DNA of 64,000 nucleotides from a bacterium (GTDB lineage Bacteria > Auribacterota > UBA6266), in assembly GCA_023228325.1 (NCBI GenBank), contig JALOBK010000001.1:1667744-1731743 (forward strand), given 5' to 3'. Under the pieces are notes generated by a model, which had not been told where the DNA came from, did not search any database, and saw only the letters and a list, made by a program, of their open reading frames with translations. Positions 24,739-62,696 of the stretch are shown here, piece after piece (the first letter of the stretch is position 1; each line of letters starts with the position of its first letter). The position numbers and the translations under genes are program-made.

Positions 24739-24947
24739 TAAGGAGTAACCGCCTGCAATGGATTTATTCATTATAGGTAATGATTTTCGACCTGTAAAAA
24801 GGCGAAAATCTGGTAGGTCGGTAGCACTTGCACAAACATCATACTATTCAGGTTTTAAAGAGCTTGTTCTTTTAAGATTTTTTAAAATGGTTGGTTCACG
24901 AAAGGACAACGGACCTTGCAGTTGGCCAATTCGCGACCTTAATTGGA

Positions 24948-25024: not shown

Positions 25025-25046
25025 CCAACAAAAATTTTGTTTAAAA

Positions 25047-25130
25047 ATTCGAAATACAAATATCGAAACGAAAAGTAAAGTATTGAATTTGAATATTGTT
25101 TTGGATTTCGAAATTATAATTTAGGATTTT
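25047..25130. repeat. AT-rich intergenic repeat element (TTCGAAATAC / TTTGAATATTG / TTAGGATTT blocks), copy in the tRNA-Ile/tRNA-Ala spacer
   Basis: Shares ordered blocks with 12393-12520. Partial matches occur at 6041-6068 and 14781-14850 (see findings). Confidence 0.7.
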
Positions 25131-25219
25131 ATTTTTTTTGATCTTTTTGATTTTTTATAAAGCACTGGAAGGGTATTTGCCCTTACTTTCCGGCTTCCTT
25201 AATAAAGGAAGATAATTGT

Positions 25220-25295
25220 GGGGTAGTAGCTCATCTGGTAGAGCGCCGCCCTTGCAAGGCGGAGGTAAGGGGTTCGAGTCCCCTCTACTCCACCA
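25220..25295 (+). tRNA. tRNA-Ala (anticodon TGC)
   Basis: GGGGTAGTAGCTCATCTGGTAGAGCGCCGCCCTTGCAAGGCGGAGGTAAGGGGTTCGAGTCCCCTCTACTCCACCA. The G3:U70 alanine identity pair is present, and CCA is encoded. Confidence 0.95.
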
Positions 25296-26024
25296 GTGAA
25301 CCGTCGCTCCGAAAGAAGGTTCAGGTTAAGGTTGAGGGAAATAGGTTTTAATATTAAGTTAAGATTGAGAATGAATCTCGGTTTTAACTTAATATTAAAA
25401 GCTGAAAAAACAGAGCTTTTATTTGTTCTTTGACAACTGAATATCAGTAACAATAGAGAACTGCTGCAACAATTGAGCAATATAGGATTCTTTAAGGTCA
25501 AGCTATTAAGGGTATGCAGTGGATGCCTTGGCATCGTTAGGCGATGAAGGACGTGGTAAGCTGCGAAAAGCTTCGGGGAGGCGCAAACTGCCGTTAATCC
25601 GGAGATGTCCGAATGGGGAAACCTATTTCAGGTAATACTGAAATACCTTGTGCTGAATACATAGGCACAAGGAGCGAAACTGGGAAAACTGAAACATCTA
25701 AGTAACCCAAGGAAAAGAAAACGATAGTGATTTCCTGAGTAGTGGCGAGCGAAACGGAAAAAATTTGCCTAAACCTGATAAGTGTCAAGCCGGCAGGCGT
25801 TGCTTATCGGGTGTCGCGGGATCCAATGATTTCAATCTGCCGATTGGAAGAGAAGTTACAAATCTGTTTTTTAGCGGAATAGTCTGGAAAGTCTTCCCAT
25901 AGAAGGTGAAAGGCCTGTACGCGAAAAGAAGCAGACTTCTTATTTGGATTCCCGAGTACTGTCAGACACGTGGAACCTGGCAGGAATTTGCCCCGACCAC
26001 GGGGTAAGGCTAAATACTAAACGA

Positions 26025-26071
<47 letters not shown>

Positions 26072-27421
26072 TGTTAGGGGAGTGAAATAGTACCTGAAAC
26101 TGTATACTTACAAACCGTCGGAGGCCTATGCTTCGGTTATCCGAAGAACGGCTGACGGCGTGCCTTTTGCATAATGATCCGGCGAGTTTATTCTATGCGG
26201 CAAGGTTAATCCTTTAAGGGAGAAGCCGTAGCGAAAGCGAGTGCTAAACGCGCGATTAGTCGCATGGATAAGACCCGAAGCCAAGTGATCTATCCATGGC
26301 CAGGTTGAAGCCTCGGTAACTCGAGGTGGAGGACCGAACTAGTGAGTGTTGAAAAACTCTTGGATGAGCTGTGGATAGGGGTGAAAGGCTAATCAAACTT
26401 GGAGATAGCTGGTTCTCCCCGAAATATATTGAGGTATAGCCTCGTGTAATAGTTACTGGGGGTAGAGCACTGGATGGGCTAGGGGTCTTACCGGACTTCC
26501 AAAACCAACCAACCTCCGAATACCAGTAACCGTATCACGGGAGGCAGACTGCGGGTGATAAGGTCCGTGGTCGAGAGGGAAAGAGCCCAGATCGCAGGTT
26601 AAGGTCCCTAAATTTACGCTAAGTGAGAAAGGAAGTGAAATCTCTAGAACAGCTGGGATGTTGGCTTAGAGGCAGCCATCATTTAAAAAGTGCGTAACAG
26701 CTTACCAGTCGAGAGGTTTTGCGCCGAAAATAATCGGGGCTAAGCGTAATACCGAAGCCGCGGATTTATCCCGCCCTCGGGCGGGGTAAGTGGTAGGGGA
26801 GCGTTCTATACGGATTGAAGGCATACCGGAAGGAGTGCTGGACTGTATAGAAGTGATTATGCCGGAATGAGTAGCGATAAGGTGTGTGAGAATCACACCC
26901 GCCGTAAACCCAAGGTTTCCTGGGGAAGGTTCGTCCGCCCAGGGTTAGTCAGGACCTAAGGCGAGGCCGAAAGGCGTAGTCGATGGACAACAGGTTAATA
27001 TTCCTGTACTGTCTTGGTGAGTGATGGAGTGACGCAGTAGGCTAAGTGGGCCTTGTGCTGGATATCAAGGTCTAAGCGAGTAGGGGGATTGATAGGCAAA
27101 TCCGTCAATCATTACCCTGAGAAGCGACGGGACACGGAGTCTTCGGACGAAGTGGATTCACTGACGCCACACTGACAAGAAAAACTTCTAAACTTATTGC
27201 CAGGATACCTGTACCGTAAACCGACTCAGGTGGGTGAGGAGAGAATCCTAAGGCGTGCGAGAGAACTCTCGTTAAGGAACTCGGCAAATTAACCCCGTAA
27301 CTTAGGGAAAAGGGGTGCCTTAACCCGTGATGTAATTAACTTGCAAAAGCGGGATAAGGTCGCAGTGAAATGGCCCAGGCGACTGTTTATCAAAAACACA
27401 CGACTCTGCTAAAGCGCAAGC

Positions 27422-27454
<33 letters not shown>

Positions 27455-27515
27455 AAAGGTTAAGGGAAAGAGTTATGTCCGACTTGTCGGACAGAAGCTT
27501 AGAACCGAAGCCCCA

Positions 27516-27572
<57 letters not shown>

Positions 27573-28108
27573 ATTCCGACCTGCACGAATGGTGTAACGA
27601 TCTGGGCACTGTCTCAACGAGGGACTCGGCGAAATTGTAGTGGCGGTGAAGATGCCGCTTGCCCGCGGCTAGACGGGAAGACCCCGTGAACCTTTACTGT
27701 ACCCTGATATTGGATTTTGGTATGACTTGTGTAGCATAGGTGGGAGGCTTTGAAGTCCCGGCGTCAGCCGGGATGGAGCCGTCAGTGAAATACCACTCTG
27801 GTTATGTTGAAATTCTAACTGTATGCCGTGAATCCGGCTGCAGGACATTGTCAGGCGGGCAGTTTGACTGGGGCGGTTTCCTCCCGAAGCGTAACGGAGG
27901 AGCACGAAGGTTACCTCAGCACGGTTGGCAATCGTGCGACGAGTGTAAAGGCATAAGGTAGCTTAACTGCGAGACAGACAAGTCGAGCAGATACGAAAGT
28001 AGGTCTTAGTGATCCGGCGGTAGAATGTGGAATTGCCGTCGCTCATCGGACAAAAGGTACTCCGGGGATAACAGGCTTATCGCTCCCGATAGTTCATATA
28101 GACGGAGC

Positions 28109-28167
<59 letters not shown>

Positions 28168-28224
28168 TAGTTGTTCACTAATTAAAGCGGTACGTGAGCT
28201 GGGTTCAGAACGTCGTGAGACAGT

Positions 28225-28978
28225 AAGGATCTTGCTGTCTATAAACTTGACTGTATGCTGGAAAAGCCGGCGTATTTAAAACTACCGTGATATCCTTTAT
28301 TATGGTAAAAATGTTTTAATGCGGCTAACCAGCAGGAAACATAGGGCGGGCAAAGTATGGATAACAATTACATCTCAGGGTTTGTTGATGGAGAAGGAAC
28401 GTTTCATATCTGCTTTCAACGTAGATCTGATTTGAAATATAATTGGCAGGTAGTTCCCGAATTTCATATTAACCAAAACGGGACGAGCAAAAATGTGCTC
28501 GAGAAAATAAGGAATATTCTTGATTGTGGTTATATAAAAAGAAATGACGGGAAAAGCGAAAAAGACAAAACCCTGGTGTATGTGGTTAGAAGAAAAAAGG
28601 ATCTTCTTGAAAAAGTTATTCCATTCTTTGAGAAATATCCATTGTGGACCGAAAAACGCAATGATTTTCTGAAATTTAAAGAAGTTCTAAAGATGATGGA
28701 TAAAGACCAACATCTTGTTGATAAAGGTTTCAGAAAAATTGTAGACATTGCTTTTTCAATGAACGCAGAGGGTATTTACCGCAGGATAAAAAAAGAACAG
28801 ATTTTATCCACTTATGGATCCTCAGAGACTATACGTCAGGCAACCTGAAAATTCAGGTTAAAGATATAGTCCGAACTGCATAGCGATATGCAGAGGTAAT
28901 TTGAAAAGATTACCCGCCTTTTCGGGAGTTTATGGAAGAGGTTAGTATCCCGTTAGTTCGGGAGAAAGTAACAGAATG
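28225..28978 (+). mobile_element. group I intron in 23S rRNA at the E. coli 2593-equivalent site (the I-CreI-type homing site)
   Basis: The exon junction GAACGTCGTGAGACAGT|...|TCGGTCCCTATCTACCGTGGGCG is continuous with the conserved 23S sequence. U at -1, omega-G at 28978, and the group I S element AAGATATAGTCCG at about 28860. Confidence 0.85.
28357..28848 (+). CDS. LAGLIDADG homing endonuclease (single-motif, homodimeric type, I-CreI-like)
   Basis: N-terminal ISGFVDGEGTF LAGLIDADG motif, a length of 163 aa, and location inside a group I intron at the I-CreI target site. Confidence 0.85.
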   Translation: MDNNYISGFVDGEGTFHICFQRRSDLKYNWQVVPEFHINQNGTSKNVLEKIRNILDCGYIKRNDGKSEKDKTLVYVVRRKKDLLEKVIPFFEKYPLWTEKRNDFLKFKEVLKMMDKDQHLVDKGFRKIVDIAFSMNAEGIYRRIKKEQILSTYGSSETIRQAT

Positions 28979-46306: not shown

Positions 46307-46462
46307 TTGTAACCACAGATGACGCACCTGCCTACGGCAGGCAGGGATTTACACACTTGCCCGCCTCTGGCGGGGATGGAAAAAAATAAAAGAAAAAATA
46401 ACTTATATAATAAAAATTAAAATAGTTTTATCTGTGATTATCTGTGCTATCTGTGGTTGTAA
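46307..46462. repeat. inverted-repeat-bounded element (MITE-like, about 156 bp) with internal GC hairpins and three tandem ATCTGTG iterons
   Basis: The 14-nt IR arms TTGTAACCACAGAT (46307-20) and ATCTGTGGTTGTAA (46449-62) match at 13 of 14 positions. Internal hairpins are CCTGCC-TACG-GCAGG and CCCGCC-TCTG-GCGGGG. Three tandem repeats ATCTGTGATT/ATCTGTGCT/ATCTGTGGTT sit at 46430-46459. Confidence 0.5.
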
Positions 46463-51628: not shown

Positions 51629-52327
51629 ATGACATGGTTTAAGAATATCTGTATTTCTTTCATAAAAATACTGATTGCAGTGGCGTTGACACCGCTTGCC
51701 TGCGGCCTTTCAGTAGCCTTATATAAGTCTGTATCCACGTATTTCGACGTTTACAGCCTGATGCCGTTCGTTTTCGGGTTTTTTTCATACCTGCTGATAT
51801 ACGCTGTTTTACAACAGCCCATAAGGACTTATGTTTTTACTCATGAATTAGTCCATGTTATATGGGTTTTTCTGTTCGGGGGAAAAGTAAAGGGCTTTAA
51901 GCTGCATAAGAACGGCGGAAGCGTAAAAGTCACAAAAAGCAATTTTGTCATAGAATTGGCCCCGTATTTTTTTCCCCTTTATTGTGTGCTTGTCATATTC
52001 CTGTATTTGTTTCTGGATATCTTCTTTGAAATGAAACCTTATTGGAAGTTGATGTCTTTTCTTGTGGGTTTCATGTGGGCTTTCCATTTTACTATCACGC
52101 TTTATGTCCTTACAAAAGAACAGACGGATTTTCAGGGCCCGGGAGTTGTCCTGTCGCTTGTTATAGTATATATATCCAATGTAGTGATATTATCTCTTAT
52201 GTTATGTTTTCTGTCCAAATCAACTTCATTTGGAAGTTTTTTCCGGGATTCGATGGAGTACAGCGTTAAAAGTTACGGCCAATTTATAAATGCATGCAGC
52301 CAATTATTTGAAAGGACAAAATTATGA
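51629..52327 (+). CDS. polytopic membrane protein with HExxH motif (putative zincin-like metalloprotease, DUF3267-like)
   Basis: THELVHVIW lies within a TM segment. Six predicted TM helices. Confidence 0.45.
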   Translation: MTWFKNICISFIKILIAVALTPLACGLSVALYKSVSTYFDVYSLMPFVFGFFSYLLIYAVLQQPIRTYVFTHELVHVIWVFLFGGKVKGFKLHKNGGSVKVTKSNFVIELAPYFFPLYCVLVIFLYLFLDIFFEMKPYWKLMSFLVGFMWAFHFTITLYVLTKEQTDFQGPGVVLSLVIVYISNVVILSLMLCFLSKSTSFGSFFRDSMEYSVKSYGQFINACSQLFERTKL

Positions 52328-52863
52328 GACGCCGGACATGGTTGATTATTATATTTTTACTGGTTTTTCTGGCTTCGGGCCGGAACGCGTATTCAGAGAA
52401 GAAAGTTATTACCCTCGATGATTTAAAAAACCGTTTCGGCAATAAAGAGGCCGAAGCTAAAAACAGCGGCAATGAGCCGATCACGGTAAGCAGTGTTTTG
52501 AAAAAAGTGGACCCGGGGGAGTCAAACCGGATATATGTAAAATTCAGGATAAGGGCAAAGGGATGGCATGAGGTCAAACTGAGAGCGGCTACGCTTGATG
52601 CCGATATGAAAGTGCTGGAGGTGCTGGATAACGGGTCTGCCGACGACAAGGTTGTTTCTGACAGCTGGATAAACGGCAACCAGCTTAAAGGCGGACATAC
52701 ATACGCTTTTGAATTCCCTTATACCAGGAATTACAAGTATGCCGTTGTTGAGGTAACATTTGGCGAAAGGGAAGAGAAGAAAGTCATCAAAAAGGCTTCA
52801 ACCTCCAAGGTTAATGTGGAGGAAATAACAATTCCGGAAGCCGGAGGAGGGACCGGAGAGTGA
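52324..52863 (+). CDS. hypothetical secreted protein
   Basis: Signal peptide. Overlaps its neighbours on both sides (translationally coupled). Confidence 0.4.
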   Translation: MRRRTWLIIIFLLVFLASGRNAYSEKKVITLDDLKNRFGNKEAEAKNSGNEPITVSSVLKKVDPGESNRIYVKFRIRAKGWHEVKLRAATLDADMKVLEVLDNGSADDKVVSDSWINGNQLKGGHTYAFEFPYTRNYKYAVVEVTFGEREEKKVIKKASTSKVNVEEITIPEAGGGTGE

Positions 52864-54395
52864 ACGCCGAAATAGAGACGATTATTGATATTCCCTGCAG
52901 GAATGCCGGCGGGTTGTTCTCCGGGACCGCGTACAGGTTCGGGAAAAGGAAGTACACTTATAAAAAACTCGACCGCTTATCGGATAAATTTGCTTCGGGC
53001 CTGGCTGCTAAAGTAGGCCTTTCGAAGGGGGATAGGGTGGCGCTGATTGCCGGTAACTGCCCGGAATATGTTGTAAGTTTTTTCGGCATTCTCAAGACGG
53101 CCTCCTGTATCGTGCCTATCAACAATTTCCTTGTCGCCGACGAAATAAAATATATCCTTTCGGATTCCAAAGCCAGAGCGGTCATTACGGGCGTTAAATA
53201 TTACGATGTTGTCAGGAAAGCCGTCATGCAGATGGAAAACAGGCCTGCGGTTATTGTCATAGGGAACTGCGTCAAAGAAGACAGGGACATAGATTACAGA
53301 TCGCTTTTCAAAAGCGGGCGCTTCAGGGAAACAAAGGTTATGCCCGATGATGCGGCCGTCATAATATATACCTCCGGCACTACAGGTTTTCCAAAAGGCG
53401 CTATCCTGAGCCATTATAACCTGGTTTCCAATGTTAAAGACTGCCTGGATGTGCTTCACGTCGGGAAAAAGGACAGGATTGTCGTTGTCCTTCCTCTTTT
53501 TCATTCATTCACCATAACCGTCTGTATGTTGACCCCTCTGTTTGCGGGGGCTTCATTTATTCTTCTCGAATCAGTCAGGCCTTTCCACAGGGTTATAAGG
53601 GCTATTATACTGGGCAGGGTGACCGGGTTTGTGGGCATACCTCAGATATTTCATCTGCTGTCGGATAAAAAAATTCCGTGGCTTGTAAGAAAGATATTAA
53701 AGATAAGGTTTTGTATTTCAGGTTCGGCCCCGCTGTCCGAGGAAGTGCTTAAGAATTTCGAAAAAAATACAGGCCTGCCTCTGATGGAAGGCTACGGCCT
53801 GTCGGAAGCTTCCCCCGTGGTTTCCGTTAATCCTTTGCGCGGAGAAAGGAAAGTAGGTTCTGTGGGCCTGCCGTTAAAAAATGTCAGCATAAAGATTGTC
53901 GACGATGATGAAAAAGAACTGCCTCCCGGCGAGATAGGGGAAATTATCGTTAAGGGGCCTAACGTGATGAAAGGTTATCTGAACCTTGAAGAAGAGACTG
54001 CAAAAGCCATAAGAGGCGGCTGGCTGTTCACGGGCGATATAGGCAAGGTGGATAAAGACGGCTATATTTATATAATAGACAGGAAAAAGGATATGATCCT
54101 TTCCCACGGCTTGAATGTTTATCCGAGAGAAGTAGAGCAGGTGTTATATCAGCACCCTTCCGTAAGAGATGCGGCCGTTGTGGGTGTGAAAGATAAGCAC
54201 AGGGGTGAGAAAGCGGTGGCCTTTGTCACTTTGAGGGACGGCTTCCGCGCCGGGCCCGGGGAACTTGTAAAATTCTGCAAGGGGAAATTAGCTCCTTACA
54301 AGATCCCTCATACGATCAGGATAGAAAAAGAGCTTCCGCGGACGCCCACGGGTAAGATATTGAAAAAAGATATCAAGGCGCTGATGGAAAAATAA
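52860..54395 (+). CDS. long-chain-fatty-acid--CoA ligase (AMP-binding enzyme)
   Basis: AMP-binding motif IIYTSGTTGFPKGA. Also GYGLSE and GWLFTGDIG...YIIDRKKDMI. GTG start. Confidence 0.85.
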   Translation: MNAEIETIIDIPCRNAGGLFSGTAYRFGKRKYTYKKLDRLSDKFASGLAAKVGLSKGDRVALIAGNCPEYVVSFFGILKTASCIVPINNFLVADEIKYILSDSKARAVITGVKYYDVVRKAVMQMENRPAVIVIGNCVKEDRDIDYRSLFKSGRFRETKVMPDDAAVIIYTSGTTGFPKGAILSHYNLVSNVKDCLDVLHVGKKDRIVVVLPLFHSFTITVCMLTPLFAGASFILLESVRPFHRVIRAIILGRVTGFVGIPQIFHLLSDKKIPWLVRKILKIRFCISGSAPLSEEVLKNFEKNTGLPLMEGYGLSEASPVVSVNPLRGERKVGSVGLPLKNVSIKIVDDDEKELPPGEIGEIIVKGPNVMKGYLNLEEETAKAIRGGWLFTGDIGKVDKDGYIYIIDRKKDMILSHGLNVYPREVEQVLYQHPSVRDAAVVGVKDKHRGEKAVAFVTLRDGFRAGPGELVKFCKGKLAPYKIPHTIRIEKELPRTPTGKILKKDIKALMEK

Positions 54396-54436
54396 TGTTT
54401 TTATTGACAAAAACTGTATAGCATTATATTCTGCAG

Positions 54437-54545
54437 AAAGTGGTGATTTAAGCTACAACTTGCGACCACATAAAATAAGCGCTAAAGCGTAGGTTTAACG
54501 GTTTTTTAGACCTGGTGCTTTACGCATCAGGTTTTTTTATGTAAA
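54437..54545 (+). promoter_or_regulatory. structured metXW leader with intrinsic terminator (candidate SAM-responsive riboswitch/attenuator)
   Basis: Promoter-like TTGACA at 54404 with TATATT at 54425. Stem GTGGT...ACCAC, AAGCU/AAAGCG elements, and a terminator ACCTGGTG-CTTTA-CGCATCAGGT plus T7 immediately before the metX start. Confidence 0.45.
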
Positions 54546-55733
54546 ATGTTGAAAGGCGTGAACGAGATGGAAGCAAACGGCGGAAAACAATCAGTGGGCC
54601 TGGTAAAGCCCGAAACAGTTACATTCGATTCGCTTGAATTGGAATGCGGCAGAAAACTGTCTCCTGTCGATGTCTGCTATGAAACATACGGCAAACTTAA
54701 TTCCCGTAAAGATAATGCTGTGCTGGTTGCGCATGCCCTTTCGGGAGACGCTCATGCCGCCGGCTTGCATTCCGCGGACGATAAAAAGCCCGGCTGGTGG
54801 GATATCTTTATCGGGCCCGGAAAAGCGATAGATACGGATAAATATTTTGTTATTTGTTCGAATATTATAGGCGGGTGCAAAGGCTCGTCAGGGCCGGGTT
54901 CAATAAATAAAAAAAATAACAAACCGTACGGCACAACTTTCCCGCCTATTACCGTAAGGGATATGGTTAATGTCCAGAAGCGCTTAATCGACCATCTGGG
55001 CATAAAGAATATTCTGGCCGTTATAGGAGGTTCCCTCGGCGGAATGCAGGTCCTTCAATGGGCTGTAGATTATCCTGCAGTGGTCAAATCCGCGATTGTC
55101 ATAGCTTCGACCGCCAAGCTCAGCGCCCAGGGCATCGCCTTTAACGCGGTGGGAAGAGAAGCTATTACTTCGGACCCCAACTGGTTTAAAGGCGATTATT
55201 ATGATAAAGGCAAAAATCCCGAGAAGGGATTGGCCATAGCGAGGATGATAGGCCATATTACCTATTTAAGCGAGGATGCGATAGAACAGAAATTCGGCCG
55301 GAAGACAAAAGCTGATAAAGACGCTGTTAACGGGGATTCTCCCGCCATGGTTGATTTTACCCAGGATGAGTATGAGATTGAAAGTTATCTCTCATACCAG
55401 GGAGATTCTTTCGTTAAACGGTTTGACGCCAATTCATATCTTTATATATCTAAAGCAATGGACGCGTTTGACCTGTATCGGGACTACGGCAGCCTTGAAA
55501 ATGCGTTTAAGGATGTTAAATCCGGGTTTCTAATAGTTTCTTATACGTCGGATTGGCTTTTTCCTACATGGCAGTCAAAAGAGATAGTTAAAGCTTTAAA
55601 AGCCAATAACATTTCTGTGACTTATTACAATATCAAATCCGAAAGCGGGCACGACTCCTTTCTTGTTGAAAAAGAGATAGGCGAACTGGAAGAAGTTGTT
55701 TCTCCGTTTCTGGATAATATCAGGGGCAGATAA
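54546..55733 (+). CDS. metX: homoserine O-acetyltransferase
   Basis: Alpha/beta hydrolase with GGSLGGMQ (nucleophile Ser) and the conserved MetX core. It may start at ATG 54567. Followed by metW. Confidence 0.85.
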   Translation: MLKGVNEMEANGGKQSVGLVKPETVTFDSLELECGRKLSPVDVCYETYGKLNSRKDNAVLVAHALSGDAHAAGLHSADDKKPGWWDIFIGPGKAIDTDKYFVICSNIIGGCKGSSGPGSINKKNNKPYGTTFPPITVRDMVNVQKRLIDHLGIKNILAVIGGSLGGMQVLQWAVDYPAVVKSAIVIASTAKLSAQGIAFNAVGREAITSDPNWFKGDYYDKGKNPEKGLAIARMIGHITYLSEDAIEQKFGRKTKADKDAVNGDSPAMVDFTQDEYEIESYLSYQGDSFVKRFDANSYLYISKAMDAFDLYRDYGSLENAFKDVKSGFLIVSYTSDWLFPTWQSKEIVKALKANNISVTYYNIKSESGHDSFLVEKEIGELEEVVSPFLDNIRGR

Positions 55734-56326
55734 TGGAAACTTTAAGAAAAGACCATCAGATAATCGCTTCGTTGATTGATAAGGGGAGCAAAGTCCTTGA
55801 CCTTGGCTGCGGGGACGGGTCTCTGCTAAAAAAACTTTCCGAGTTGAAAAACGCGAGCATCCAGGGCGTGGAAATCGACCCCGACAAGATAAAGGAATGT
55901 TCCAAGGCCGGTGTTCCCGTAATCCATACCGATATCGATGAAGGGCTTTCCGATTATCCCGATAAATCGTATGATTTTGTCATATGTTCCCAGACTCTCC
56001 AGGCTGTGCATAAGCCCAAAAAAGTCCTTGATGAAATATTGAGAGTCGGCAAAAAGGGTATAGTCATTTTCCCCAATTTCGGCCATTGGAAAATACGCAG
56101 AATGCTGTTTTTCGGCGGGATAATGCCCCGGTCGAACGAACTGCCTTACAACTGGTATGATTCTCCCAATATCCATCATCTGACTATCAAGGATTTTAAG
56201 AAATTCTGCGGGAACGAAGGTATTGCCATAGAAAGAGAATATTGTTTCAGGTCTCTGAATCAGGAAAGGTCAGGCCTTTTTCCGAACCTTCTTTGCAGGT
56301 TTGGGATGTTTGTGATATCCAGATAG
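55733..56326 (+). CDS. metW: methionine biosynthesis protein MetW
   Basis: Matches MetW (DHQIIASLIDKGSKVLDLGCGDGSLL). Start overlaps the metX stop. Confidence 0.8.
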   Translation: METLRKDHQIIASLIDKGSKVLDLGCGDGSLLKKLSELKNASIQGVEIDPDKIKECSKAGVPVIHTDIDEGLSDYPDKSYDFVICSQTLQAVHKPKKVLDEILRVGKKGIVIFPNFGHWKIRRMLFFGGIMPRSNELPYNWYDSPNIHHLTIKDFKKFCGNEGIAIEREYCFRSLNQERSGLFPNLLCRFGMFVISR

Positions 56327-56506
56327 GAAATGGCACTTTTTCGCAATCTTTTCGTCAGCCTTCAAAAATCCTTGTGCGTTCCGCCGTTGGCGGGACTCCA
56401 ATGCAGTCCTGAAAGAAATATTCGCCTTCCTTGACCTTGCAGAAAAATTACTCATTTTCGGGAGTGGTGGTAGGGTATCGGTGATAAAAGATTCGTTTAA
56501 TTCCTA

Positions 56507-57100
56507 TTATTTTATAAATGGAAAAAGTTTTATTTCTTCGTTATCAACGTTTCTAAGTCTGATTGCTAATTCTTCTCCATCTTTCATTTTTCCTAAGAAA
56601 ACTACACCATTTAAAAGTCCATTTGGGGGGATTCTTTCATCTTTAATTTCTTTATACATATAATCATCTTCCATCCGCTGATTTGCCTTTGAAGATCCAA
56701 CACCATCAACTACAGCAGGAATTAAGAAAGGCCATATGAATACGCCAGCAACACCATAGGCAGTTGCTCTGCCGGCAGTGCTGAAACCACATTCATTTGC
56801 AACTTCCTCGGCAGGAACGGTATCTTTATTTAACATTCTTTTTTTAAATTCATATGTATTGGCCGTTCTGTTATCAATGAGGATGTATACAGGTTGATAA
56901 ACTCTGTATAATTTTTTGACACCAAAAACCTGTTTTGATTCTTTTGCATCAAAAAATTTTGCAGCTACCTTTAATCCATCTTGATCTTGGGCAGTGCTAT
57001 AAGAAGCAATATCTGAAGTAGGCAATCTTCCTGCACGATAACTTGCACAGCCGCTGATAATAGAACATAATAATAAAAGCAAAAACGAATGCTTCCTCAT
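56507..57100 (-). CDS. hypothetical lipoprotein (AT-rich islet)
   Basis: Signal peptide with lipobox IISGC. Visibly lower GC than flanking genes. Confidence 0.45.
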   Translation of the reverse strand: MRKHSFLLLLLCSIISGCASYRAGRLPTSDIASYSTAQDQDGLKVAAKFFDAKESKQVFGVKKLYRVYQPVYILIDNRTANTYEFKKRMLNKDTVPAEEVANECGFSTAGRATAYGVAGVFIWPFLIPAVVDGVGSSKANQRMEDDYMYKEIKDERIPPNGLLNGVVFLGKMKDGEELAIRLRNVDNEEIKLFPFIK

Positions 57101-57486
57101 AATCCCCCCTCTTTAAAACTAAAATGAGTATTGCATAAAGATGGTAATCTTCCATTAATGGAATGTCAATGAAATTTAAAATAGTAATTTCTTGGTATGC
57201 AGATAGTTATGTAATATAAATTTGTTAAAACAAATAAAAAGATTAAAAAAATGTGATAGAAATAAGCAAAGCTTTCCAAACTGGAACCTTATCTGAGAAG
57301 AAAAACTTAAAATTTTTCTGAATCTGAAATAAAGAGGTTGGTTAATTCATTTGAGGTTTAGAGTGCCGGTGATTAGGGTTGTATTATTGGGGGGATCAAA
57401 CTATAATAAATCAACTAACTGAAAGAAAAAAGTATCCAGAGTTTTTCCTATCCATAAAAAAGGGTAAAAGATATTTTTGGGTGATA

Positions 57487-58119
57487 ATGAATCTGAAATG
57501 CAAGATATTAAAACACCTCTTTTTTGTCTTAGTTATTTTTTATCCATATCTTCCTAATCTACAAGCAGAAACACATCAATTCGTGATAATAAGTTCCGAA
57601 GCTCCTGCAACTATAAGAGAATTGCCAAACGGAAGAGATTCTTTAGGGAAAATACCCCCAGGTAAAAAAGTAGAAATCTTCGAAGAAAAAACTGTAAGAA
57701 GCGGGCCTTTACTTGTTATTTGGTATAAAGTAAAAGCTAAAGGGAAATATGGATGGATTAGTCAATATGTGACTGAAGGGAATAAAATAATTGAAGATAC
57801 TGATAAGGTTGCAAGTGAGATAAAACGAATCCCTGGCGCGGATAAAGTGAGAGAAGGGCCATTTGGTGAAGAAGCCAAAAATAATTTTAAAGACTGGCTT
57901 TTAAATACTGGCGATGTAAAGTGGGTAAGATTAAAAAATGATTATAAAATCTATGTAAGACTTGATTCTTCTAAATATACATCAATTCATAATGTCAAAA
58001 ATATTGCCGCATATATAGCAAATGCTTACAGGAAACAAACCAATTACCAAAAGCCTATAGAGGTAATAGTTTTGGGGTCTAATAACGCAAAGATTTGGGC
58101 GGAATATAGATTGCCTTGA
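57487..58119 (+). CDS. secreted protein with bacterial SH3-like domain (AT-rich islet)
   Basis: Signal peptide from ATG 57487. GKKVEIFEEK...WYKVKAKGKYGWISQYV resembles SH3b. Confidence 0.4.
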   Translation: MNLKCKILKHLFFVLVIFYPYLPNLQAETHQFVIISSEAPATIRELPNGRDSLGKIPPGKKVEIFEEKTVRSGPLLVIWYKVKAKGKYGWISQYVTEGNKIIEDTDKVASEIKRIPGADKVREGPFGEEAKNNFKDWLLNTGDVKWVRLKNDYKIYVRLDSSKYTSIHNVKNIAAYIANAYRKQTNYQKPIEVIVLGSNNAKIWAEYRLP

Positions 58120-58180
58120 AAAATAGACTTAATTTTTTGACATTTGATATTAAAACAAGCATACGAATATTTTTAGAGAA

Positions 58181-59602
58181 ATGAGAATTACAGAATTTAC
58201 CAATCCGATAGAGTTCCAACGTTTTTGTTCACTGCTATTTTCGGCAGAAGATCATAATTTTCAAAGCATAGATGATAGCGGTGGTGATTTGGGGATAGAT
58301 GGATATATTGCTGATAGTAGAATATTTATGATTTATTGTCCTGAAAAACCGCAGAAAAATAATGACTCAAAAAATAAATCAAAAATTTCAAGTGATATTA
58401 AAAAAGCAGTCAAAACCATAAAATCTAAGAACTTGTCGGTTAATACACTAGTTTTTGTTACACCGATGAATTTGAGAACAGAAGTCATTTTGTATCTTGA
58501 AAAAGAAGCGTCGAACTATGGTTTTAAAAGCGTTTCTTATGGAGAGGATAAATTAACCGAATTAGCTGCCAAACATCCACACATTGTAAAACAATTTCCA
58601 TTGATGATTTTTCCAGATATAGAAGCAAAGATAGATAAGGTAAGGGAAAAAATGGATATTCGTTTTGATTGTTTAGAGAGATTAATCAATCCAGCGTTCC
58701 ATGATAAAAAGGGAGAAAAAAGTGTTTTTGTCATTGAGCCTCGTTTAGAAAAAGCTCTAAAAAGTTATGAAGATGGCGATGTTGATAAAGCCGTAACAAT
58801 ATCACGGGAAGTATATTATGAAACTTCCAATGACAGAGTTAAATTGCAAGCCATTATAAATATTGTAACAGGCCATTATGGATTGCGGGAGAATGTATCC
58901 GAGTTAATTCCAATGTGCGATGAGGGTATTAAGATAGCTGAAAAAGTTAAAAATCAATTAGCTAGATTGTCATTAATGGCACAAAAAGCTTTGCTGCTCT
59001 CTGATGAAAGAGATTTCTTATTATTAGATCGATACTTTATAGAACAAGTAGCTTATAAAACTGGCATTTTTAATGAAGCAGAGTATGAACATATAAATAA
59101 AAAAATTGGGAAAAATCAAGAAGATATTGAAAGTATATTACGAACTGTGATTGAAGATTCTCGTGCAAAAAAAATGTATAAGGCTTTAGCTAATATGTAT
59201 TTAATTAGTGGCTTAATGAATGCTAATAGTTATATTATTCTGGCGAAAACATATCCTGAAGTTGCAGGTTTTTGTGATAATAGATGTAAGACTGCTTTTA
59301 GTGAATCAAAAAAAATTTATGCTGCTCTAGGGGATGAAGAAGGAGTTGTTAATGTTACACATAATTTATCTAATCACTTGCGTTCAACGGGTGAGATAGA
59401 ATTAAGCAAGAAATATGCTAGAGAAGTTATTGCAAAAGCTAAAAGCAAAGGATATTTTTTGTTGGAACTTAAGGCATCGGAGTTATTATATGCATTGGAA
59501 CATACTACACCCGACTATTATAATATCCCACCGTCTCAATTCTTAGACAAGCTTAAGAAAAGAAGAGAGATGATATTAAAAAGTTTGAAAAATAAAAAGT
59601 AA
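58181..59602 (+). CDS. Mrr-like restriction-endonuclease-fold N-terminal domain fused to a large alpha-helical/TPR-like C-terminal domain (candidate defence or abortive-infection protein)
   Basis: N-terminal FQRFCSLLFSAEDHNFQSIDDSGGDLGIDGYIA...MIYCPEK parallels the Mrr_cat pattern FE.LV..LL...G......GDGGIDG...QCK. The C-terminal 300 aa are helical repeats. AT-rich codon usage. Confidence 0.45.
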   Translation: MRITEFTNPIEFQRFCSLLFSAEDHNFQSIDDSGGDLGIDGYIADSRIFMIYCPEKPQKNNDSKNKSKISSDIKKAVKTIKSKNLSVNTLVFVTPMNLRTEVILYLEKEASNYGFKSVSYGEDKLTELAAKHPHIVKQFPLMIFPDIEAKIDKVREKMDIRFDCLERLINPAFHDKKGEKSVFVIEPRLEKALKSYEDGDVDKAVTISREVYYETSNDRVKLQAIINIVTGHYGLRENVSELIPMCDEGIKIAEKVKNQLARLSLMAQKALLLSDERDFLLLDRYFIEQVAYKTGIFNEAEYEHINKKIGKNQEDIESILRTVIEDSRAKKMYKALANMYLISGLMNANSYIILAKTYPEVAGFCDNRCKTAFSESKKIYAALGDEEGVVNVTHNLSNHLRSTGEIELSKKYAREVIAKAKSKGYFLLELKASELLYALEHTTPDYYNIPPSQFLDKLKKRREMILKSLKNKK

Positions 59603-59824
59603 TCCTTAATAGTTAATACGAATTTTTGCTTGTTTTTTTGATTGTCATTATGTAAAATTCACTTCCTTAAGTTCCTGTTCTTTATAGACACAAATACGTA
59701 TGTAGTAAAAATTGTAGTAAAAGTTTGGCAAAACAGGGAATTTTGGGGAAGTGTTGGGAAATTGTAGAAGCCTTTAAAATTTGCTGTTTTACCGTCAATA
59801 AAATATAGTTCACGTCGTATCAAT

Positions 59825-59900
59825 GCCCCAATAGCTCAGTCGGCAGAGCAACTGACTCTTAATCAGTGGGTCCTAGGTTCGAGTCCTAGTTGGGGCACCA
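59825..59900 (+). tRNA. tRNA-Lys (anticodon CTT)
   Basis: GCCCCAATAGCTCAGTCGGCAGAGCAACTGACTCTTAATCAGTGGGTCCTAGGTTCGAGTCCTAGTTGGGGCACCA. Anticodon loop CTCTTAA, CCA encoded. Confidence 0.9.
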
Positions 59901-60075
59901 CTGAACCACACAGGGTTCAGTGCAAGCGCGAAACCACATAAAGTTTAGTGCAAGCGTTAGAAAAGGTTTCAAGGCATGTGTTTTTTTAATCCCCGCCTAA
60001 GGCGGGTAAATGTGTAAATCTGAGTTATCCCTGCCCGCCGAGGCTTTGTGGCGGGTGTGGTCAAAAATTAAAAGT

Positions 60076-61359
60076 TTACACAGTGTTTTTCTTCTCTAAA
60101 ATAACCATTGTTTCCATATGCGGGGTCTGGGGGAAGAAATCGTACGCGAAAATATTTTTCAGCTTATACGCGGACAGTAATATTTTTAAGTCTCTCGTGA
60201 GCGTTGCCGGGTTGCACGATATATAGGCTATGGTTTTGGGCGGTTTCATCAGGATGTGCCTGCAGATATTCTTATCCAAACCCTTCCGCGGCGGATCAAT
60301 AATCAAAATGCCGGGCGATGATTTCAACACAGAGCTTATCAATTTTCCGCAGTCGCCTTTACCGATATGAAAATTTGTAATATTGTTGAGTTCAAGATTT
60401 TTCTTCAGAAAATGTATATTTTCTTTCGAGGACTCCACGGCAATAACCCCTGACACTCTTTTTGCCAGCAGGATACCGAATGTTCCGACGCCGCAGTAAA
60501 GATCGGCGACAGTTGTATTTTTGTCCAGTGTAATGGATTTTATCAGGTCTTCCATCAGGATATTTAACATTCCGATATTTGTCTGAAAAAAAGATTCGGA
60601 CCCTATAAGAAAGCGGGTTTGGCCGGCATATTCTTCGATAAAATAATTTCCCGCCAGGACAAGCCTGTGATTTTTCTTTTTGCAGATATATACGGCGCCG
60701 GCAAGGGGAGATTGGGCTGTTAATTCACTGAAGCTGTCGGAAAAATCTTTCAGTTCTTTCGGCTCAACGCCGTAAAGGGTTAAAAGCAGGCTTTTGTTAT
60801 GCGAACTTTCCTTCACTACTACTTTATTTATAAAATCCAGTCCGCTGTCTTTTATTATCTGTAACAGCCGTTTTAACAGCAGGCTTATATTGCCGGATAC
60901 CAGAAAACACTGTTCTATTTTTTCGAACTGTGTCCGGGAATCAGGCAGATTGTATGCGAGATGAGGGGCTTTATTTTCCCATATTATATTGAGGCTTATC
61001 TTGTTCCTGTAATTCCATATCCTGGGTGATGGACGGAAGATGATATCCGGCGATTCTATTTTCAGCTGGTGGGCGAAAAAATCTTCTTTTAATTGCGCGT
61101 GTTTGATTTTTATCTGCGTATCATAGTCCATATATTGGTAGGGGGAGCATATTTTGTAATGTGCGCACCGCGGTTTTATCCTCTTGGCCGAAGGGGAAAG
61201 TATACTGACGGTTTTTGCTTCAATGAAATTGCTTTTTTCTTTTATGGGTTCGACTTCCACCAGTTCCCCTCTCAGGCCTTCATCGGTAAAGATTATTTTT
61301 CCGCCGGTTTGGGAAAGGCTTTTTCCGGGATATACTATTTTTTCTATTTTAATTTGCAT
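60076..61359 (-). CDS. rlmD: 23S rRNA (uracil-5-)-methyltransferase RlmD/RumA family (TRAM + class I MTase)
   Basis: N-terminal TRAM domain, SAM motif DLYCGVGTFG, and C-terminal AYISCNPATLTRD. The track start GTG 61401 is unlikely and ATG 61359 (MQIKIEK) is preferred. Confidence 0.75.
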   Translation of the reverse strand: MQIKIEKIVYPGKSLSQTGGKIIFTDEGLRGELVEVEPIKEKSNFIEAKTVSILSPSAKRIKPRCAHYKICSPYQYMDYDTQIKIKHAQLKEDFFAHQLKIESPDIIFRPSPRIWNYRNKISLNIIWENKAPHLAYNLPDSRTQFEKIEQCFLVSGNISLLLKRLLQIIKDSGLDFINKVVVKESSHNKSLLLTLYGVEPKELKDFSDSFSELTAQSPLAGAVYICKKKNHRLVLAGNYFIEEYAGQTRFLIGSESFFQTNIGMLNILMEDLIKSITLDKNTTVADLYCGVGTFGILLAKRVSGVIAVESSKENIHFLKKNLELNNITNFHIGKGDCGKLISSVLKSSPGILIIDPPRKGLDKNICRHILMKPPKTIAYISCNPATLTRDLKILLSAYKLKNIFAYDFFPQTPHMETMVILEKKNTV

Positions 61360-62517: not shown

Positions 62518-62696
62518 AATTACGGGGGACGCAAGACGTTCGCTTTGCTGGGACGATGGACGTGCTGGGTTTTAAATCATCCTGCGAATTTGCCTATGCG
62601 CCGAAGCCTCTAAAACCTGAACAATAGACCGCAATTGAGTTTTTTCTAGGTTCTATTATCTATTGTTCAATTGCTCTGTCCCGCCTTTGGCGGGAC

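What the first reader, a model, noticed from the sequence alone, without database searches (positions are those of the whole stretch)
56460..59824. AT-rich islet of about 3.3 kb abutting tRNA-Lys, encoding a lipoprotein, an SH3b protein and an Mrr-like nuclease-TPR fusion
The stretch between the end of metW and tRNA-Lys(CTT) is visibly more AT-rich than the surrounding housekeeping genes. It has long A/T-rich intergenic gaps. All three of its genes lack housekeeping homology. tRNA genes are classic insertion points for islands. The largest gene (58181-59602) has an N-terminus that follows the Mrr catalytic-domain pattern (hydrophobic helix, then DDSGGDLGIDGY, then YCPEK). A 300-aa helical/TPR-like repeat domain follows. 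A nuclease fused to a repeat sensor is the architecture of abortive-infection and defence effectors, and I do not recognise this combination as a named system. No integrase or direct repeat of the tRNA 3' end was found. It may be a degraded island, or one inserted by another route.
Basis: partly seen in the sequence, partly recalled or inferred. Interest (0 to 1): 0.65.

Follow-up and report, generated by a model that had tools for sequence, protein, structure and literature searches.

The report
Acquired islet with nuclease–TPR defence candidate
A 3.7-kb stretch of foreign, AT-rich DNA sits at a tRNA-Lys gene of an uncultured Auribacterota-like bacterium; it carries three cargo genes, one of them a compact protein that joins a restriction-type (Mrr/LmuA-like) nuclease directly to a TPR repeat domain, which is most likely an untested single-gene anti-phage sensor-effector.

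Summary
Window 56460-59824 has 32.0% GC against 42.5% elsewhere and is the lowest 3.4-kb stretch of the window. GC3 of its three genes is 0.23-0.25 against 0.45±0.04.

The only two close relatives found (Auribacterota/UBP3 MAGs) have metW, 45 bp, tRNA-Lys, then the methyltransferase, with no islet. The non-syntenic block is 56343-60088. The tRNA and its promoter are inverted in the window. No integrase or att repeat is present.

In the 473-aa protein, residues 1-136 model as an αβββαβ PD-(D/E)xK domain. The best PDB match is the Mrr-like nuclease of Avs4. The domain has the Mrr-specific DxGxD motif but PEK in place of QxK, and it falls below the Pfam Mrr_cat threshold. It is homologous to the effector domain of one Lamassu LmuA type. 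Residues 182-472 form a TPR-like solenoid. No NTPase and no LmuB or LmuC are present.

The same nuclease domain heads STAND NTPases and TPR-PIN proteins. About 460-aa nuclease-TPR proteins form an unnamed family whose members lie beside RM, HEPN and TIR genes, integrases, an ICE and a phage terminase. The lipoprotein is recurrent cargo of integrative elements, and the SH3b protein is secreted; neither accompanies the nuclease-TPR gene elsewhere.

Verdict: a degraded or rearranged acquired islet carrying a plausible but untested defence gene. It is a new variant of a known kind, of moderate interest.

The parts
56343..60088 (.). Whole segment with no counterpart at the metW/methyltransferase locus of relatives (3746 bp, replacing about 218 bp in the relatives)
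   Evidence: blastn against L012 and L013: left synteny ends at 56342 and right synteny resumes at 60089-60090.
56460..59621 (.). Low-GC core of the islet (32.1% GC)
   Evidence: The edges 56343-56459 (45% GC) and 59901-60075 (46% GC) have native-like composition.
56507..57100 (-). Lipoprotein gene (197 aa; signal peptide plus lipobox ...LLLCSIISG|C)
   Evidence: ORF. No Pfam, PADLOC or PHROG hit. More than 120 homologues at 50-79% identity in Omnitrophota, Auribacterota and Chlamydiota MAGs. The homologues examined lie in integrase-bearing elements. GC3 is 0.232.
57313..57346 (+). Tentative remnant of the relatives' metW-to-tRNA spacer, ending where the tRNA 3' end would be; a possible inversion breakpoint
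   Evidence: Local alignment to L013 2475-2509: 0 of 200 shuffles reach the score. However, the whole-window blast gives E 0.013, and an equally good chance hit lies at 52098-52120.
57487..58119 (+). Secreted SH3b-domain protein (210 aa; the longer TTG-started ORF begins at 57379)
   Evidence: Pfam SH3_3, E 9e-6, 26.2 bits against a cut-off of 27. Independent 210-aa gene call in L093. GC3 is 0.246. No homologue next to any nuclease-TPR homologue.
58181..59602 (+). 473-aa Mrr/LmuA-like nuclease fused to a TPR-like domain
   Evidence: AF2 model with pLDDT 84.8. 26 homologues. N-domain family of 992 clusters.
58181..58630 (+). N-terminal PD-(D/E)xK domain (aa 1-150; core αβββαβαβ in aa 9-120)
   Evidence: Model with pLDDT 88.3. 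Foldseek top hit is 8dgf_B (Avs4): E 7e-4, TM 0.63, rmsd 3.2 Å over 146 columns; then EcoT38I, Can2, N.BspD6I and EcoO109I. PADLOC LmuA PDLC03852 at E 1e-8. Mrr_cat below threshold in 8 of 15 members.
58286..58300 (+). Motif II, D36-L-G38-I-D40 (the Mrr-type DxGxD), invariant in the family
   Evidence: Alignments A1 and A2. Motif definition from PMC2790908.
58334..58348 (+). Motif III variant, Y52-C53-P54-E55-K56. K56 lies 16 residues after D40, as in LlaGI, but P stands in place of the Mrr glutamine
   Evidence: Y52 and C53 are invariant in A1 and A2; P54 is invariant in A2 and >=90% conserved in A1; E55 and K56 are >=90% conserved. The same YCPEK motif occurs in the L092 LmuA.
58640..58714 (+). 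Low-confidence linker (aa 154-178); too short to hold an NTPase domain
   Evidence: pLDDT below 50.
58724..59599 (+). TPR-like all-helical repeat domain (aa 182-473)
   Evidence: Foldseek PDB hits to LGN/Pins, KLC and Rap TPR domains, E 1e-4 to 1e-2. C-terminal similarity in 52 family members of about 445-480 aa.
59622..59668 (+). tRNA-Lys promoter-like region, inverted relative to the relatives
   Evidence: 72% identity over 47 nt to L013 2598-2644 and L012 10728-10774 in reverse orientation; E 2.6e-5 in the restricted search; 0 of 200 shuffles reach the score.
59825..59900 (+). tRNA-Lys(CTT), identical to that of L013 but on the opposite strand relative to metW
   Evidence: ARAGORN, Rfam 73 bits, blastn.
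59901..60088 (.). Spacer between the tRNA and the methyltransferase, carrying a 25-nt tandem pair and GC-rich hairpins of a type found elsewhere in the window
   Evidence: Direct repeat D1. The CCCGCC-N3-GGCGGG motif matches four sites with up to 1 mismatch (56380 is the one-mismatch variant TCCGCC-GTT-GGCGGG), against 0.1 expected. A 40-nt repeat is shared with 46345-46385.

Best explanation
The segment 56343-60088 is a strain-specific, horizontally acquired mini-island at the tRNA-Lys(CTT) locus of an Auribacterota-like genome. It has lost, or never had, its mobility genes. It was also rearranged: the tRNA and its promoter are inverted relative to relatives.

It carries three independent cargo genes, of which the 473-aa one is the functional centre. 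That protein is a single-polypeptide sensor-effector. An N-terminal Mrr/LmuA-type PD-(D/E)xK nuclease is joined by a linker of about 30 residues to a TPR-like solenoid, with no NTPase.

Inferred mechanism, by analogy with Avs4, Upx and Lamassu:
- The TPR domain binds a protein or peptide of an invading phage or mobile element.
- Binding relieves autoinhibition, or drives oligomerisation that brings the nuclease domains together.
- The nuclease then cuts DNA indiscriminately and aborts the infection.

Shown here: foreign composition; absence from relatives; the nuclease fold and Mrr motif II; the TPR-like fold; homology of the N-domain to an LmuA effector; reuse of the same domain on STAND and TPR-PIN proteins; and defence or mobile-element neighbourhoods of homologues.

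Inferred only: catalytic activity, the nature of the trigger, activation by oligomerisation, and the defence phenotype.
For: Acquisition.
- GC is 0.32 against 0.425, and GC3 has z about -5 for all three genes.
- Both close relatives (MetW 91% and 87% identical) have metW, 45 bp, then tRNA-Lys, with no islet.
- Loci holding the closest homologues of the cargo genes have 33-38% GC.

Nuclease.
- The AF2 N-domain has pLDDT 88.
- The best PDB match is the Avs4 nuclease domain, followed by restriction enzymes. The best BFVD hit is 'restriction endonuclease' at E 8e-5.
- DxGxD is invariant (motif definition in PMC2790908).
- PADLOC LmuA PDLC03852 is hit by 10 of 15 members, best E 8e-13.
- hhalign gives 97% probability (E 3e-11) against the LmuA of a complete LmuA-LmuC-LmuB operon on viral contig L092, which shares the YCPEK and FVTP motifs.

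Sensor.
- The C-terminal domain has a TPR fold.

Modular reuse.
- The N-domain profile finds 992 clusters.
- The long members examined are N-domain + TPR + PIN-TPR-GreABC, or N-domain + NACHT/nSTAND/AAA_16 + TPR.
- 73 of 161 sequences are 430-500 aa, and 52 share the C-terminal domain.

Neighbourhoods of homologues.
- RM genes, Vsr, ParB-methylase, a phage terminase and proteins carrying Rx4H (HEPN-type) motifs seen by eye in the translations.
- HEPN/NTase plus a methylase.
- A type III-like RM plus an integrase.
- An ICE, next to a SEFIR/TIR protein.
- An integrase plus a PIN-TPR protein.
- A type I RM operon.

Precedents.
- Upx is an NTPase-free sensor plus PD-(D/E)xK nuclease (PMC13601566).
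- Lamassu activates its nuclease effector through oligomerisation (PMC12663957).
Against: - No experiment exists for any member of the family.
- Pfam Mrr_cat is below its gathering score (13.5 bits against 21).
- Motif III is PEK rather than QxK or ExK, and E55 and K56 are not strictly invariant (YCPKK, YCPED and YCPER occur). The active-site assignment is therefore uncertain, and I could not inspect the model coordinates.
- There are no hits in the phage or plasmid collections or in PHROGs at useful E-values.
- Two homologue contexts (L004, L183) show nothing recognisable.
- Only two close relatives exist, so gain against loss rests on composition and parsimony.
- The islet lacks an integrase and att repeats.
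Confidence: 0.6

Rival explanations
1. The 473-aa protein is a DNA-directed restriction enzyme of the Mrr kind (type IV, modification-dependent). The nuclease itself recognises modified or foreign DNA, and the TPR-like domain serves only for oligomerisation or regulation rather than for sensing a phage protein.
For: Mrr-type motif II and the fold. Homologues lie next to RM systems.
Against: There is no recognisable DNA-binding or reader domain such as the winged helix of Mrr (Pfam). The domain order matches effector-first conflict proteins (Avs4, LmuA). The same N-domain is attached to STAND NTPases and TPR-PIN proteins, where it acts as an effector module.
Confidence: 0.15
2. The N-domain is catalytically dead or serves as a DNA-binding module. 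The protein would then be a peptide- or protein-responsive regulator of a mobile element (RRNPP-like logic: TPR receptor plus DNA-binding head), not a killer nuclease.
For: Motif III departs from QxK/ExK, and E55 and K56 vary in a few members. Foldseek lists Rap/RRNPP receptors among the TPR hits, including phage phi3T Rap, at E about 0.014. Close homologues sit on phage-like elements.
Against: D31, D32, S33, G34, G35, D36, G38, D40 and G41 are strictly invariant across about 25%-identical sequences, and the YCPEK and FVTP motifs are retained in a bona fide LmuA effector. That pattern is typical of an active site. The Rap hits are weaker than the generic TPR hits.
Confidence: 0.1
3. The islet is ancestral at this locus and was deleted in the two relatives. 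Its low GC reflects gene-specific composition rather than horizontal transfer.
For: Only two relatives are available. There is no integrase or att site. The edges carry native-type hairpin repeats.
Against: GC3 lies 5 sd below that of 46 other genes, for all three genes at once. Homologues of two of the three genes are cargo of integrative elements, phage-like elements and an ICE in unrelated taxa. The relatives keep an intact, compact metW/tRNA/methyltransferase arrangement that is identical between them.
Confidence: 0.1
4. The lipoprotein, the SH3b protein and the nuclease-TPR protein act together as a three-gene system, for example an envelope sensor coupled to a cytoplasmic nuclease.
For: The genes are adjacent and share the same anomalous GC3. 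The SH3b and nuclease-TPR genes are co-oriented, 61 bp apart, with no predicted terminator between them.
Against: None of 11 loci with nuclease-TPR or N-domain homologues encodes a relative of the lipoprotein or the SH3b protein, and none of 9 lipoprotein loci encodes a nuclease-TPR relative (tblastn). The lipoprotein is transcribed divergently.
Confidence: 0.05

Closest known systems
Lamassu LmuA effectors of the type modelled by PADLOC PDLC03852 (for example the LmuA-LmuC-LmuB operon on IMG/VR contig L092)
   Same: Homologous N-terminal nuclease domain: hhalign 97% probability, E 3e-11. The motifs GDxGI(D/E)GY, YCPEK and FVTP are shared.
   Different: No LmuB (SMC-like ATPase) or LmuC is encoded in the islet. 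The LmuA C-terminal region (profile positions 128-336) is not matched; a TPR-like solenoid stands in its place.
Avs4 (antiviral STAND, PDB 8dgf) and other Avs proteins with an Mrr nuclease, such as Avs8A
   Same: The layout is an N-terminal Mrr-like PD-(D/E)xK effector followed by a C-terminal TPR sensor. Avs4 is the best structural match of the N-domain. Relatives of the N-domain do occur on STAND NTPases.
   Different: There is no STAND NTPase; only a disordered linker of about 30 residues separates nuclease and TPR. The protein is 473 aa against 1534 residues in the solved chain. No sequence-level match to any PDB chain.
Upx (Gao_Upx) terminase sensor
   Same: A single protein that combines a sensor with a PD-(D/E)xK nuclease and lacks a STAND NTPase (PMC13601566). 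It shows that NTPase-free sensor-nuclease defence proteins exist.
   Different: In Upx the nuclease is C-terminal and divergent (ExK), and the sensor is a large N-terminal domain that is predicted to bind terminase through β-augmentation (PMC13601566). The nuclease-dead mutation E1176A places that protein beyond 1,170 residues. No homology to the window protein was detected (PADLOC).
E. coli Mrr / LlaGI nuclease domain (Pfam Mrr_cat PF04471)
   Same: PD-(D/E)xK fold; the Mrr-specific motif II, D-x-G-x-D; a lysine 16 residues after the catalytic Asp, as in LlaGI. Mrr_cat is the only recurrent Pfam hit (8 of 15 members).
   Different: Below the gathering threshold. Motif III is P-E-K instead of Q-x-K. 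The motif I Phe is followed by Gln instead of Glu. There is no winged-helix DNA-binding domain, and the nuclease is N-terminal.
TPR-GreAB-C-PIN proteins (Pfam PF20698) carrying the same N-domain
   Same: The same N-terminal domain followed by TPR repeats (P0059, P0060, P0096, P0177). In L010 a stand-alone N-domain protein is encoded directly upstream of such a protein.
   Different: Those proteins are about 1,200-1,560 aa and add a PIN domain. Their canonical Pfam TPRs are not detectably similar to the window's C-terminal domain.
tRNA-linked genomic islands
   Same: Low GC, strain-specific, adjacent to a tRNA gene, with cargo typical of mobile elements.
   Different: No integrase and no direct repeat of the tRNA 3' end. 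The islet lies on the 5' (promoter) side of the tRNA as it is now oriented, and the tRNA itself is inverted.

Membership tests
PD-(D/E)xK (restriction endonuclease-like) fold | αβββαβ core | tested here: met
   AF2 N-domain model with pLDDT 88.3: H9-23, E27-29, E41-43, E47-51, H62-83, E89-93. Foldseek hits to Avs4, EcoT38I, Can2, N.BspD6I and EcoO109I.
PD-(D/E)xK (restriction endonuclease-like) fold | Acidic residue at the start of β2 plus (D/E)xK on β3 | tested here: inconclusive
   D40 is invariant at the start of β2. After β3 the motif is C53-P54-E55-K56, so the acid sits at K-1 rather than K-2, and a few members vary E55 or K56. Model coordinates could not be inspected.
Mrr family (Pfam Mrr_cat) | Motif II D-x-G-x-D: a second Asp four residues before the catalytic Asp, the Mrr synapomorphy (PMC2790908) | tested here: met
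   D36-L-G38-I-D40, with all three conserved residues invariant in 26 sequences.
Mrr family (Pfam Mrr_cat) | Motif III Q-x-K | tested here: not met
   The window protein has P54-E55-K56. The lysine spacing fits LlaGI (16 residues) but the glutamine is absent.
Mrr family (Pfam Mrr_cat) | Score above the Pfam gathering threshold | tested here: not met
   13.5 bits against a cut-off of 21 for the window's N-domain. Best family member reaches E 0.005. 8 of 15 members hit below threshold.
Lamassu | LmuA effector domain | tested here: met
   PADLOC PDLC03852 at E 6.5e-8 (full protein) and 1e-8 (N-domain), covering only profile positions 16-127 of 336. hhalign to the L092 LmuA gives 97% probability.
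Lamassu | Adjacent LmuB (SMC-like ATPase), usually with LmuC | tested here: not met
   The islet's other two proteins have no PADLOC hit. The flanking genes are metX, metW and a TrmA-like methyltransferase.
Avs / AVAST (antiviral STAND) | Central STAND NTPase domain | tested here: not met
   No P-loop, NACHT or AAA Pfam hit. Only a low-confidence linker (aa 154-178) lies between the nuclease and the helical repeats.
Avs / AVAST (antiviral STAND) | N-terminal effector plus C-terminal TPR-type sensor | tested here: met
TPR repeat proteins | Tandem helix-turn-helix repeats forming a solenoid, and a match to Pfam TPR models | tested here: inconclusive
   By fold, yes: LGN/Pins and KLC at E about 1e-4, probability 1.0, TM 0.3-0.45. 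By sequence, no Pfam TPR model is hit; the only hit is Rapsyn_N at E 0.022.
tRNA-integrated genomic island | Tyrosine or serine recombinase gene, and direct repeats derived from the tRNA 3' end | tested here: not met
   No integrase ORF in 56343-60088. There is a single copy of the 25-nt tRNA 3' end at up to 3 mismatches.
tRNA-integrated genomic island | Presence/absence polymorphism among related genomes and deviant composition | tested here: met
Anti-phage defence system (functional class) | Protection against phage when expressed | not testable with these tools
   The only support is guilt by association and domain logic.

The most novel reading that the evidence does not exclude
The roughly 460-aa nuclease-TPR proteins are a new single-gene anti-phage family, a 'mini-Avs'. 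A TPR sensor would gate an LmuA/Mrr-type nuclease directly, with no STAND NTPase and no SMC partner. If so, ATP-driven oligomerisation is dispensable for pattern recognition by TPR-nuclease immune proteins. It would also mean that one effector domain has been exchanged among Lamassu, Avs-like, TPR-PIN and NTPase-free sensors.
Probability: 0.4. Interest if true: 0.6.

Novelty: new variant of a known kind. Interest (0 to 1): 0.45.

Why it matters
If the prediction holds, this would be a compact (about 1.4 kb) sensor-effector immune protein built from parts known in Lamassu and Avs but lacking their ATPases. It would be a simple model for asking how a TPR sensor alone can switch on a nuclease. 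It would also be a new entry for defence-system catalogues, which currently detect only its N-terminal third as 'LmuA'.

The locus also documents defence or mobile-element cargo in Auribacterota, a candidate phylum known here only from metagenome assemblies. It shows that a tRNA-linked islet can persist without an integrase or att sites after local rearrangement.

If the prediction fails, the finding is just a small acquired islet of hypothetical genes.

Tried and rejected
- Sequence and profile searches against PDB chains found nothing for the full protein or the N-domain.
- The phage and plasmid collections (tblastn) gave no match, and PHROGs gave nothing useful.
- The metagenome scan with MetW found no further close relatives (best 52% identity). 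More distant MetW loci have no tRNA nearby. The ancestral tRNA orientation therefore could not be polarised beyond the two relatives.
- The search for att-type repeats found none.
- A 25-nt tRNA-like stretch lies inside the lipoprotein ORF (56758-56782, E 0.002 in the restricted search). I treat it as chance.
- The 57313-57346 spacer remnant is kept only as tentative, because a match of equal strength occurs elsewhere in the window.
- The promoter and terminator scan was not above the shuffled background. Rfam found only the tRNA.
- I first took the 564-aa neighbour in L003 to be a terminase like the one in L001. tblastn shows the two are unrelated, so only L001/L002 are phage-terminase contexts.
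- PADLOC found nothing for the unannotated neighbours in L001, L004 and L183.
- A three-gene system was rejected for lack of co-occurrence.

Full report
**1. The observation**

The stretch 56460-59824 has 32.0% GC against 42.5% for the rest of the window. It is the lowest of all sliding windows of that size (mean 41.8%, sd 2.7%). The deviation sits in third codon positions. GC3 is 0.232, 0.246 and 0.230 for the three genes, against 0.452±0.040 (minimum 0.376) for 46 other ORFs of the window.

The two long intergenic gaps are real and AT-rich: 386 bp at 28% GC and 222 bp at 30% GC. ARAGORN and Rfam place tRNA-Lys(CTT) at 59825-59900 on the + strand. The flanks are metX and metW (Pfam MetW, E 2e-68) on the left and a TrmA/RlmD-like methyltransferase on the right. 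No integrase is present. The 25-nt 3' end of the tRNA occurs only once, even with three mismatches allowed.

**2. Presence and absence in relatives**

A scan of one genome per species with MetW found two close relatives. L012 is a Candidatus Auribacterota MAG (91% identity). L013 is UBP3 UBA6266 (87% identity). All other hits were at 52% identity or below. A metagenome scan added nothing closer.

In both relatives the order is metX, metW, 45 bp, tRNA-Lys(CTT) on the minus strand, about 110 bp, then the methyltransferase. blastn puts the end of left synteny at window 56342 and the resumption of right synteny at 60089. So 3,746 bp in the window replace about 218 bp in the relatives.

The tRNA is identical to that of L013 but lies on the opposite strand. 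A 47-nt promoter-like stretch upstream of it is also inverted: window 59622-59668 against L013 2598-2644, 72% identity, E 2.6e-5 in the restricted search, with 0 of 200 shuffles reaching the score. About 150 extra bases now separate this stretch from the tRNA.

The first 16 nt of the relatives' metW-to-tRNA spacer follow metW in the window (56327-56342). The last 35 nt or so have a tentative match at 57313-57346. An equally strong chance match exists elsewhere in the window, so this match is only suggestive. If it is real, inverting 57347-59900 would restore the arrangement spacer, tRNA(-), promoter seen in the relatives. That would imply one insertion on each side of the tRNA, followed by an inversion. 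I report this as a hypothesis only.

The edges of the block (56343-56459 and 59901-60088) have native-like GC. They carry GC-rich hairpins that match CCCGCC-N3-GGCGGG (with one mismatch at 56380), a motif also found at 46360 and 62680 (four sites against 0.1 expected). An independent Logan assembly (L093) is 100% identical to window 52181-59871 and ends inside the tRNA. The left junction and the islet-to-tRNA junction are therefore reproduced. The tRNA-to-methyltransferase junction is not.

**3. The 473-aa protein**

Pfam finds nothing above threshold for the full protein. PADLOC matches residues 5-112 to an LmuA model, PDLC03852, at E 6.5e-8. Only 26 homologues were found by the word-indexed search, one of them the identical NCBI entry 'hypothetical protein M0R36_08280 [bacterium]' on a 1.99-Mb contig.

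The alignment shows a strongly conserved N-terminal region of about 150 residues. Its invariant residues are D31, D32, S33, G34, G35, D36, G38, D40, G41, Y52, C53, K68, K75, F92 and T94. The C-terminal halves are variable.

AlphaFold2 gives a confident model (pLDDT 84.8). It has an αβββαβαβ domain at residues 9-120, a disordered linker at 154-178, and an all-helical repeat domain at 182-472.

- The helical domain matches TPR structures (LGN/Pins, KLC, Rap) at E 1e-4 to 1e-2.
- The N-domain modelled alone has pLDDT 88.3. Its best PDB match is Avs4 chain 8dgf_B (E 7e-4, TM 0.63, rmsd 3.2 Å over 146 columns). EcoT38I, Can2, N.BspD6I and EcoO109I follow.
- In BFVD its best match is a phage 'restriction endonuclease' at E 8e-5.

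Scanned alone, 8 of 15 N-domains hit Pfam Mrr_cat below threshold. No other family recurs. D36-x-G38-x-D40 is the motif II that Smith et al. describe as the synapomorphy of the Mrr family, essential in LlaGI (PMC2790908). K56 lies 16 residues after D40, as in LlaGI. However, the Mrr glutamine is replaced: the motif reads P54-E55-K56, and a few members vary E55 or K56.

The domain is therefore a divergent Mrr-like PD-(D/E)xK nuclease domain. It is not a Pfam Mrr_cat member by score, and its catalytic residues are only partly assignable.

**4. The domain is a mobile effector module**

A profile of the N-domain finds 992 clusters (at 50% identity) with E <= 1e-3, and 106 with E <= 1e-30, among 1.84 billion representatives.

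- Many are 445-480 aa. Among the first hits and the top 150 representatives, 73 of 161 are 430-500 aa, and 52 share detectable similarity with the window's C-terminal domain. The two-domain protein is thus a family in its own right.
- Longer members are N-domain + TPR + PIN-TPR-GreABC (P0059, P0060, P0096, P0177), or N-domain + NACHT/nSTAND3/AAA_16 with or without MalT-like TPR (P0084, P0085, P0091, P0186).
- The one hit in IMG/VR (L092) is the LmuA of a complete LmuA-LmuC-LmuB operon, with PADLOC E-values of 1e-28, 4e-20 and 3e-88. Its N-domain aligns to the family profile with 97% probability and shares GDxGI(D/E)GY, YCPEK and FVTP.

The window protein has neither an NTPase nor LmuB/LmuC partners. 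It is therefore neither an Avs nor a Lamassu system, although it uses their type of effector.

**5. Neighbourhoods**

Homologues lie in the following contexts:

- Beside type II/IIG RM genes, Vsr, a ParB-methylase, a phage terminase large subunit (phrog_38, E 7e-102) and proteins in whose translations I saw Rx4H (HEPN-type) motifs by eye (L001/L002).
- Beside a HEPN/nucleotidyltransferase pair and a methylase (L003).
- Beside a type III-like RM and an integrase (L005).
- In an ICE, next to a SEFIR/TIR protein (L007/L008).
- Beside an integrase and a PIN-TPR protein (L010).
- Just after a type I RM operon (L184).

Two contexts are uninformative (L004, L183). The loci of the closest homologues have 33-38% GC, like the islet.

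**6. The other two genes**

The 197-aa protein has a lipoprotein signal (…LLLCSIISG|C) and no family assignment. It has more than 120 homologues at 50-79% identity in Omnitrophota, Auribacterota (Ca. Ancaeobacter) and Chlamydiota MAGs. The three contexts examined are integrative elements carrying integrases, ORF6N, HEPN, a type III-like RM, a primase, or HTH/AAA_25 genes. A superinfection-exclusion role is conceivable, but that is pure conjecture.

The SH3b gene most likely starts at 57487, giving 210 aa with a signal peptide. It hits SH3_3 just under the threshold.

Neither gene has a relative near any nuclease-TPR homologue, and the reverse also holds. The three genes are therefore independent cargo.

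**7. Mechanism**

The best-supported reading is a single-chain sensor-effector. The TPR-like domain would recognise a protein or peptide of an invader, and the Mrr/LmuA-type nuclease would then be unleashed, probably by oligomerisation, to abort the infection. The precedents are:

- Avs4, which has the same domain order, with the window's N-domain matching its N-terminal part.
- Lamassu, whose nuclease effector is activated through oligomerisation (PMC12663957).
- Upx, a sensor plus PD-(D/E)xK nuclease without a STAND NTPase that senses phage terminase (PMC13601566).

Everything beyond fold, motifs, homology and context is inference. The rivals are a DNA-directed type IV-like enzyme, a non-catalytic regulator with RRNPP-like logic, an ancestral rather than acquired islet, and a three-gene system. 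They are listed with their tests.

**8. Novelty and verdict**

The parts are known. The combination is an unnamed family:

- PADLOC 2.0 detects only the N-terminal third.
- NCBIfam and Pfam have no model for it.
- A full-text search for names such as nuclease-TPR or Mrr-TPR found nothing.

I rate it a new variant of a known kind. The island itself is ordinary apart from the inverted tRNA and the lack of mobility genes. Interest is moderate (0.45). It is a well-supported candidate defence gene in a poorly known phylum, with a clear experimental path but no functional data.

Noticed in passing
window 59622-59900 (compare L012 10640-10774 and L013 2510-2644): tRNA-Lys(CTT) and its promoter-like region are inverted relative to both close relatives. 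About 150 extra bases (59669-59818) now separate promoter and tRNA. Inverting 57347-59900 would restore the relatives' arrangement of spacer, tRNA and promoter.
   Followed up: partly
window 46360-46374, 56380-56394, 59992-60006, 62680-62694: A family of GC-rich hairpins matching CCCGCC-N3-GGCGGG (one mismatch at 56380) lies in intergenic DNA: four sites against 0.1 expected. A 40-nt repeat is shared between 46345-46385 and the reverse complement of 59976-60016. Two copies sit just inside the two edges of the non-syntenic block. They may be REP-like or terminator-like elements that served as recombination substrates.
   Followed up: partly
L092 567-4003 (IMG/VR UViG_3300045988_176570, 24% GC): A viral contig carries a complete Lamassu operon, LmuA-LmuC-LmuB. 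Its LmuA effector domain belongs to the same YCPEK-motif nuclease family as the window protein.
   Followed up: yes
L010 2800-6431 and L011 418-4049: A stand-alone N-domain protein (298 aa) overlaps the start of a 919-aa TPR + PIN-TPR-GreABC protein, next to an integrase. This looks like a split version of the fused N-domain-TPR-PIN proteins (P0059 and others).
   Followed up: no
L001 5543-7237; L003 4883-6577: Both loci have a 564-aa protein upstream of the nuclease-TPR homologue. Only the L001 protein is a phage terminase large subunit (phrog_38, E 7e-102); the two are unrelated by tblastn. L001 also has two neighbours (197 and 539 aa) in whose translations I noticed Rx4H (HEPN-type) motifs by eye; neither has a PADLOC hit.
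   Followed up: partly
window 56758-56782: A 25-nt stretch inside the lipoprotein ORF is 84% identical to the D-arm/anticodon-stem part of tRNA-Lys, in the orientation the tRNA has in the relatives. It is probably chance (E 0.002 in a restricted search).
   Followed up: partly
L093 (Logan SRR18595300), equal to window 52181-59871: An independent contig is identical to the window but stops 47 nt into the tRNA-Lys gene. This hints at a repeat or at strain heterogeneity at that point in the source community.
   Followed up: no
window 23000-28300: An rRNA operon with tRNA-Ile(GAT) and tRNA-Ala(TGC) in the spacer (24948-25295). These are the high-GC peaks of the window at about 50%.
   Followed up: no
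window 59904-59956: A tandem pair of 25-nt units (AACCACAYARRGTTYAGTGCAAGCG, 84% identical, 28-nt spacing) lies immediately 3' of the tRNA. The first unit forms a hairpin (CTGAACC...GGTTCAG) that resembles a sequence at L013 5294-5341.
   Followed up: no
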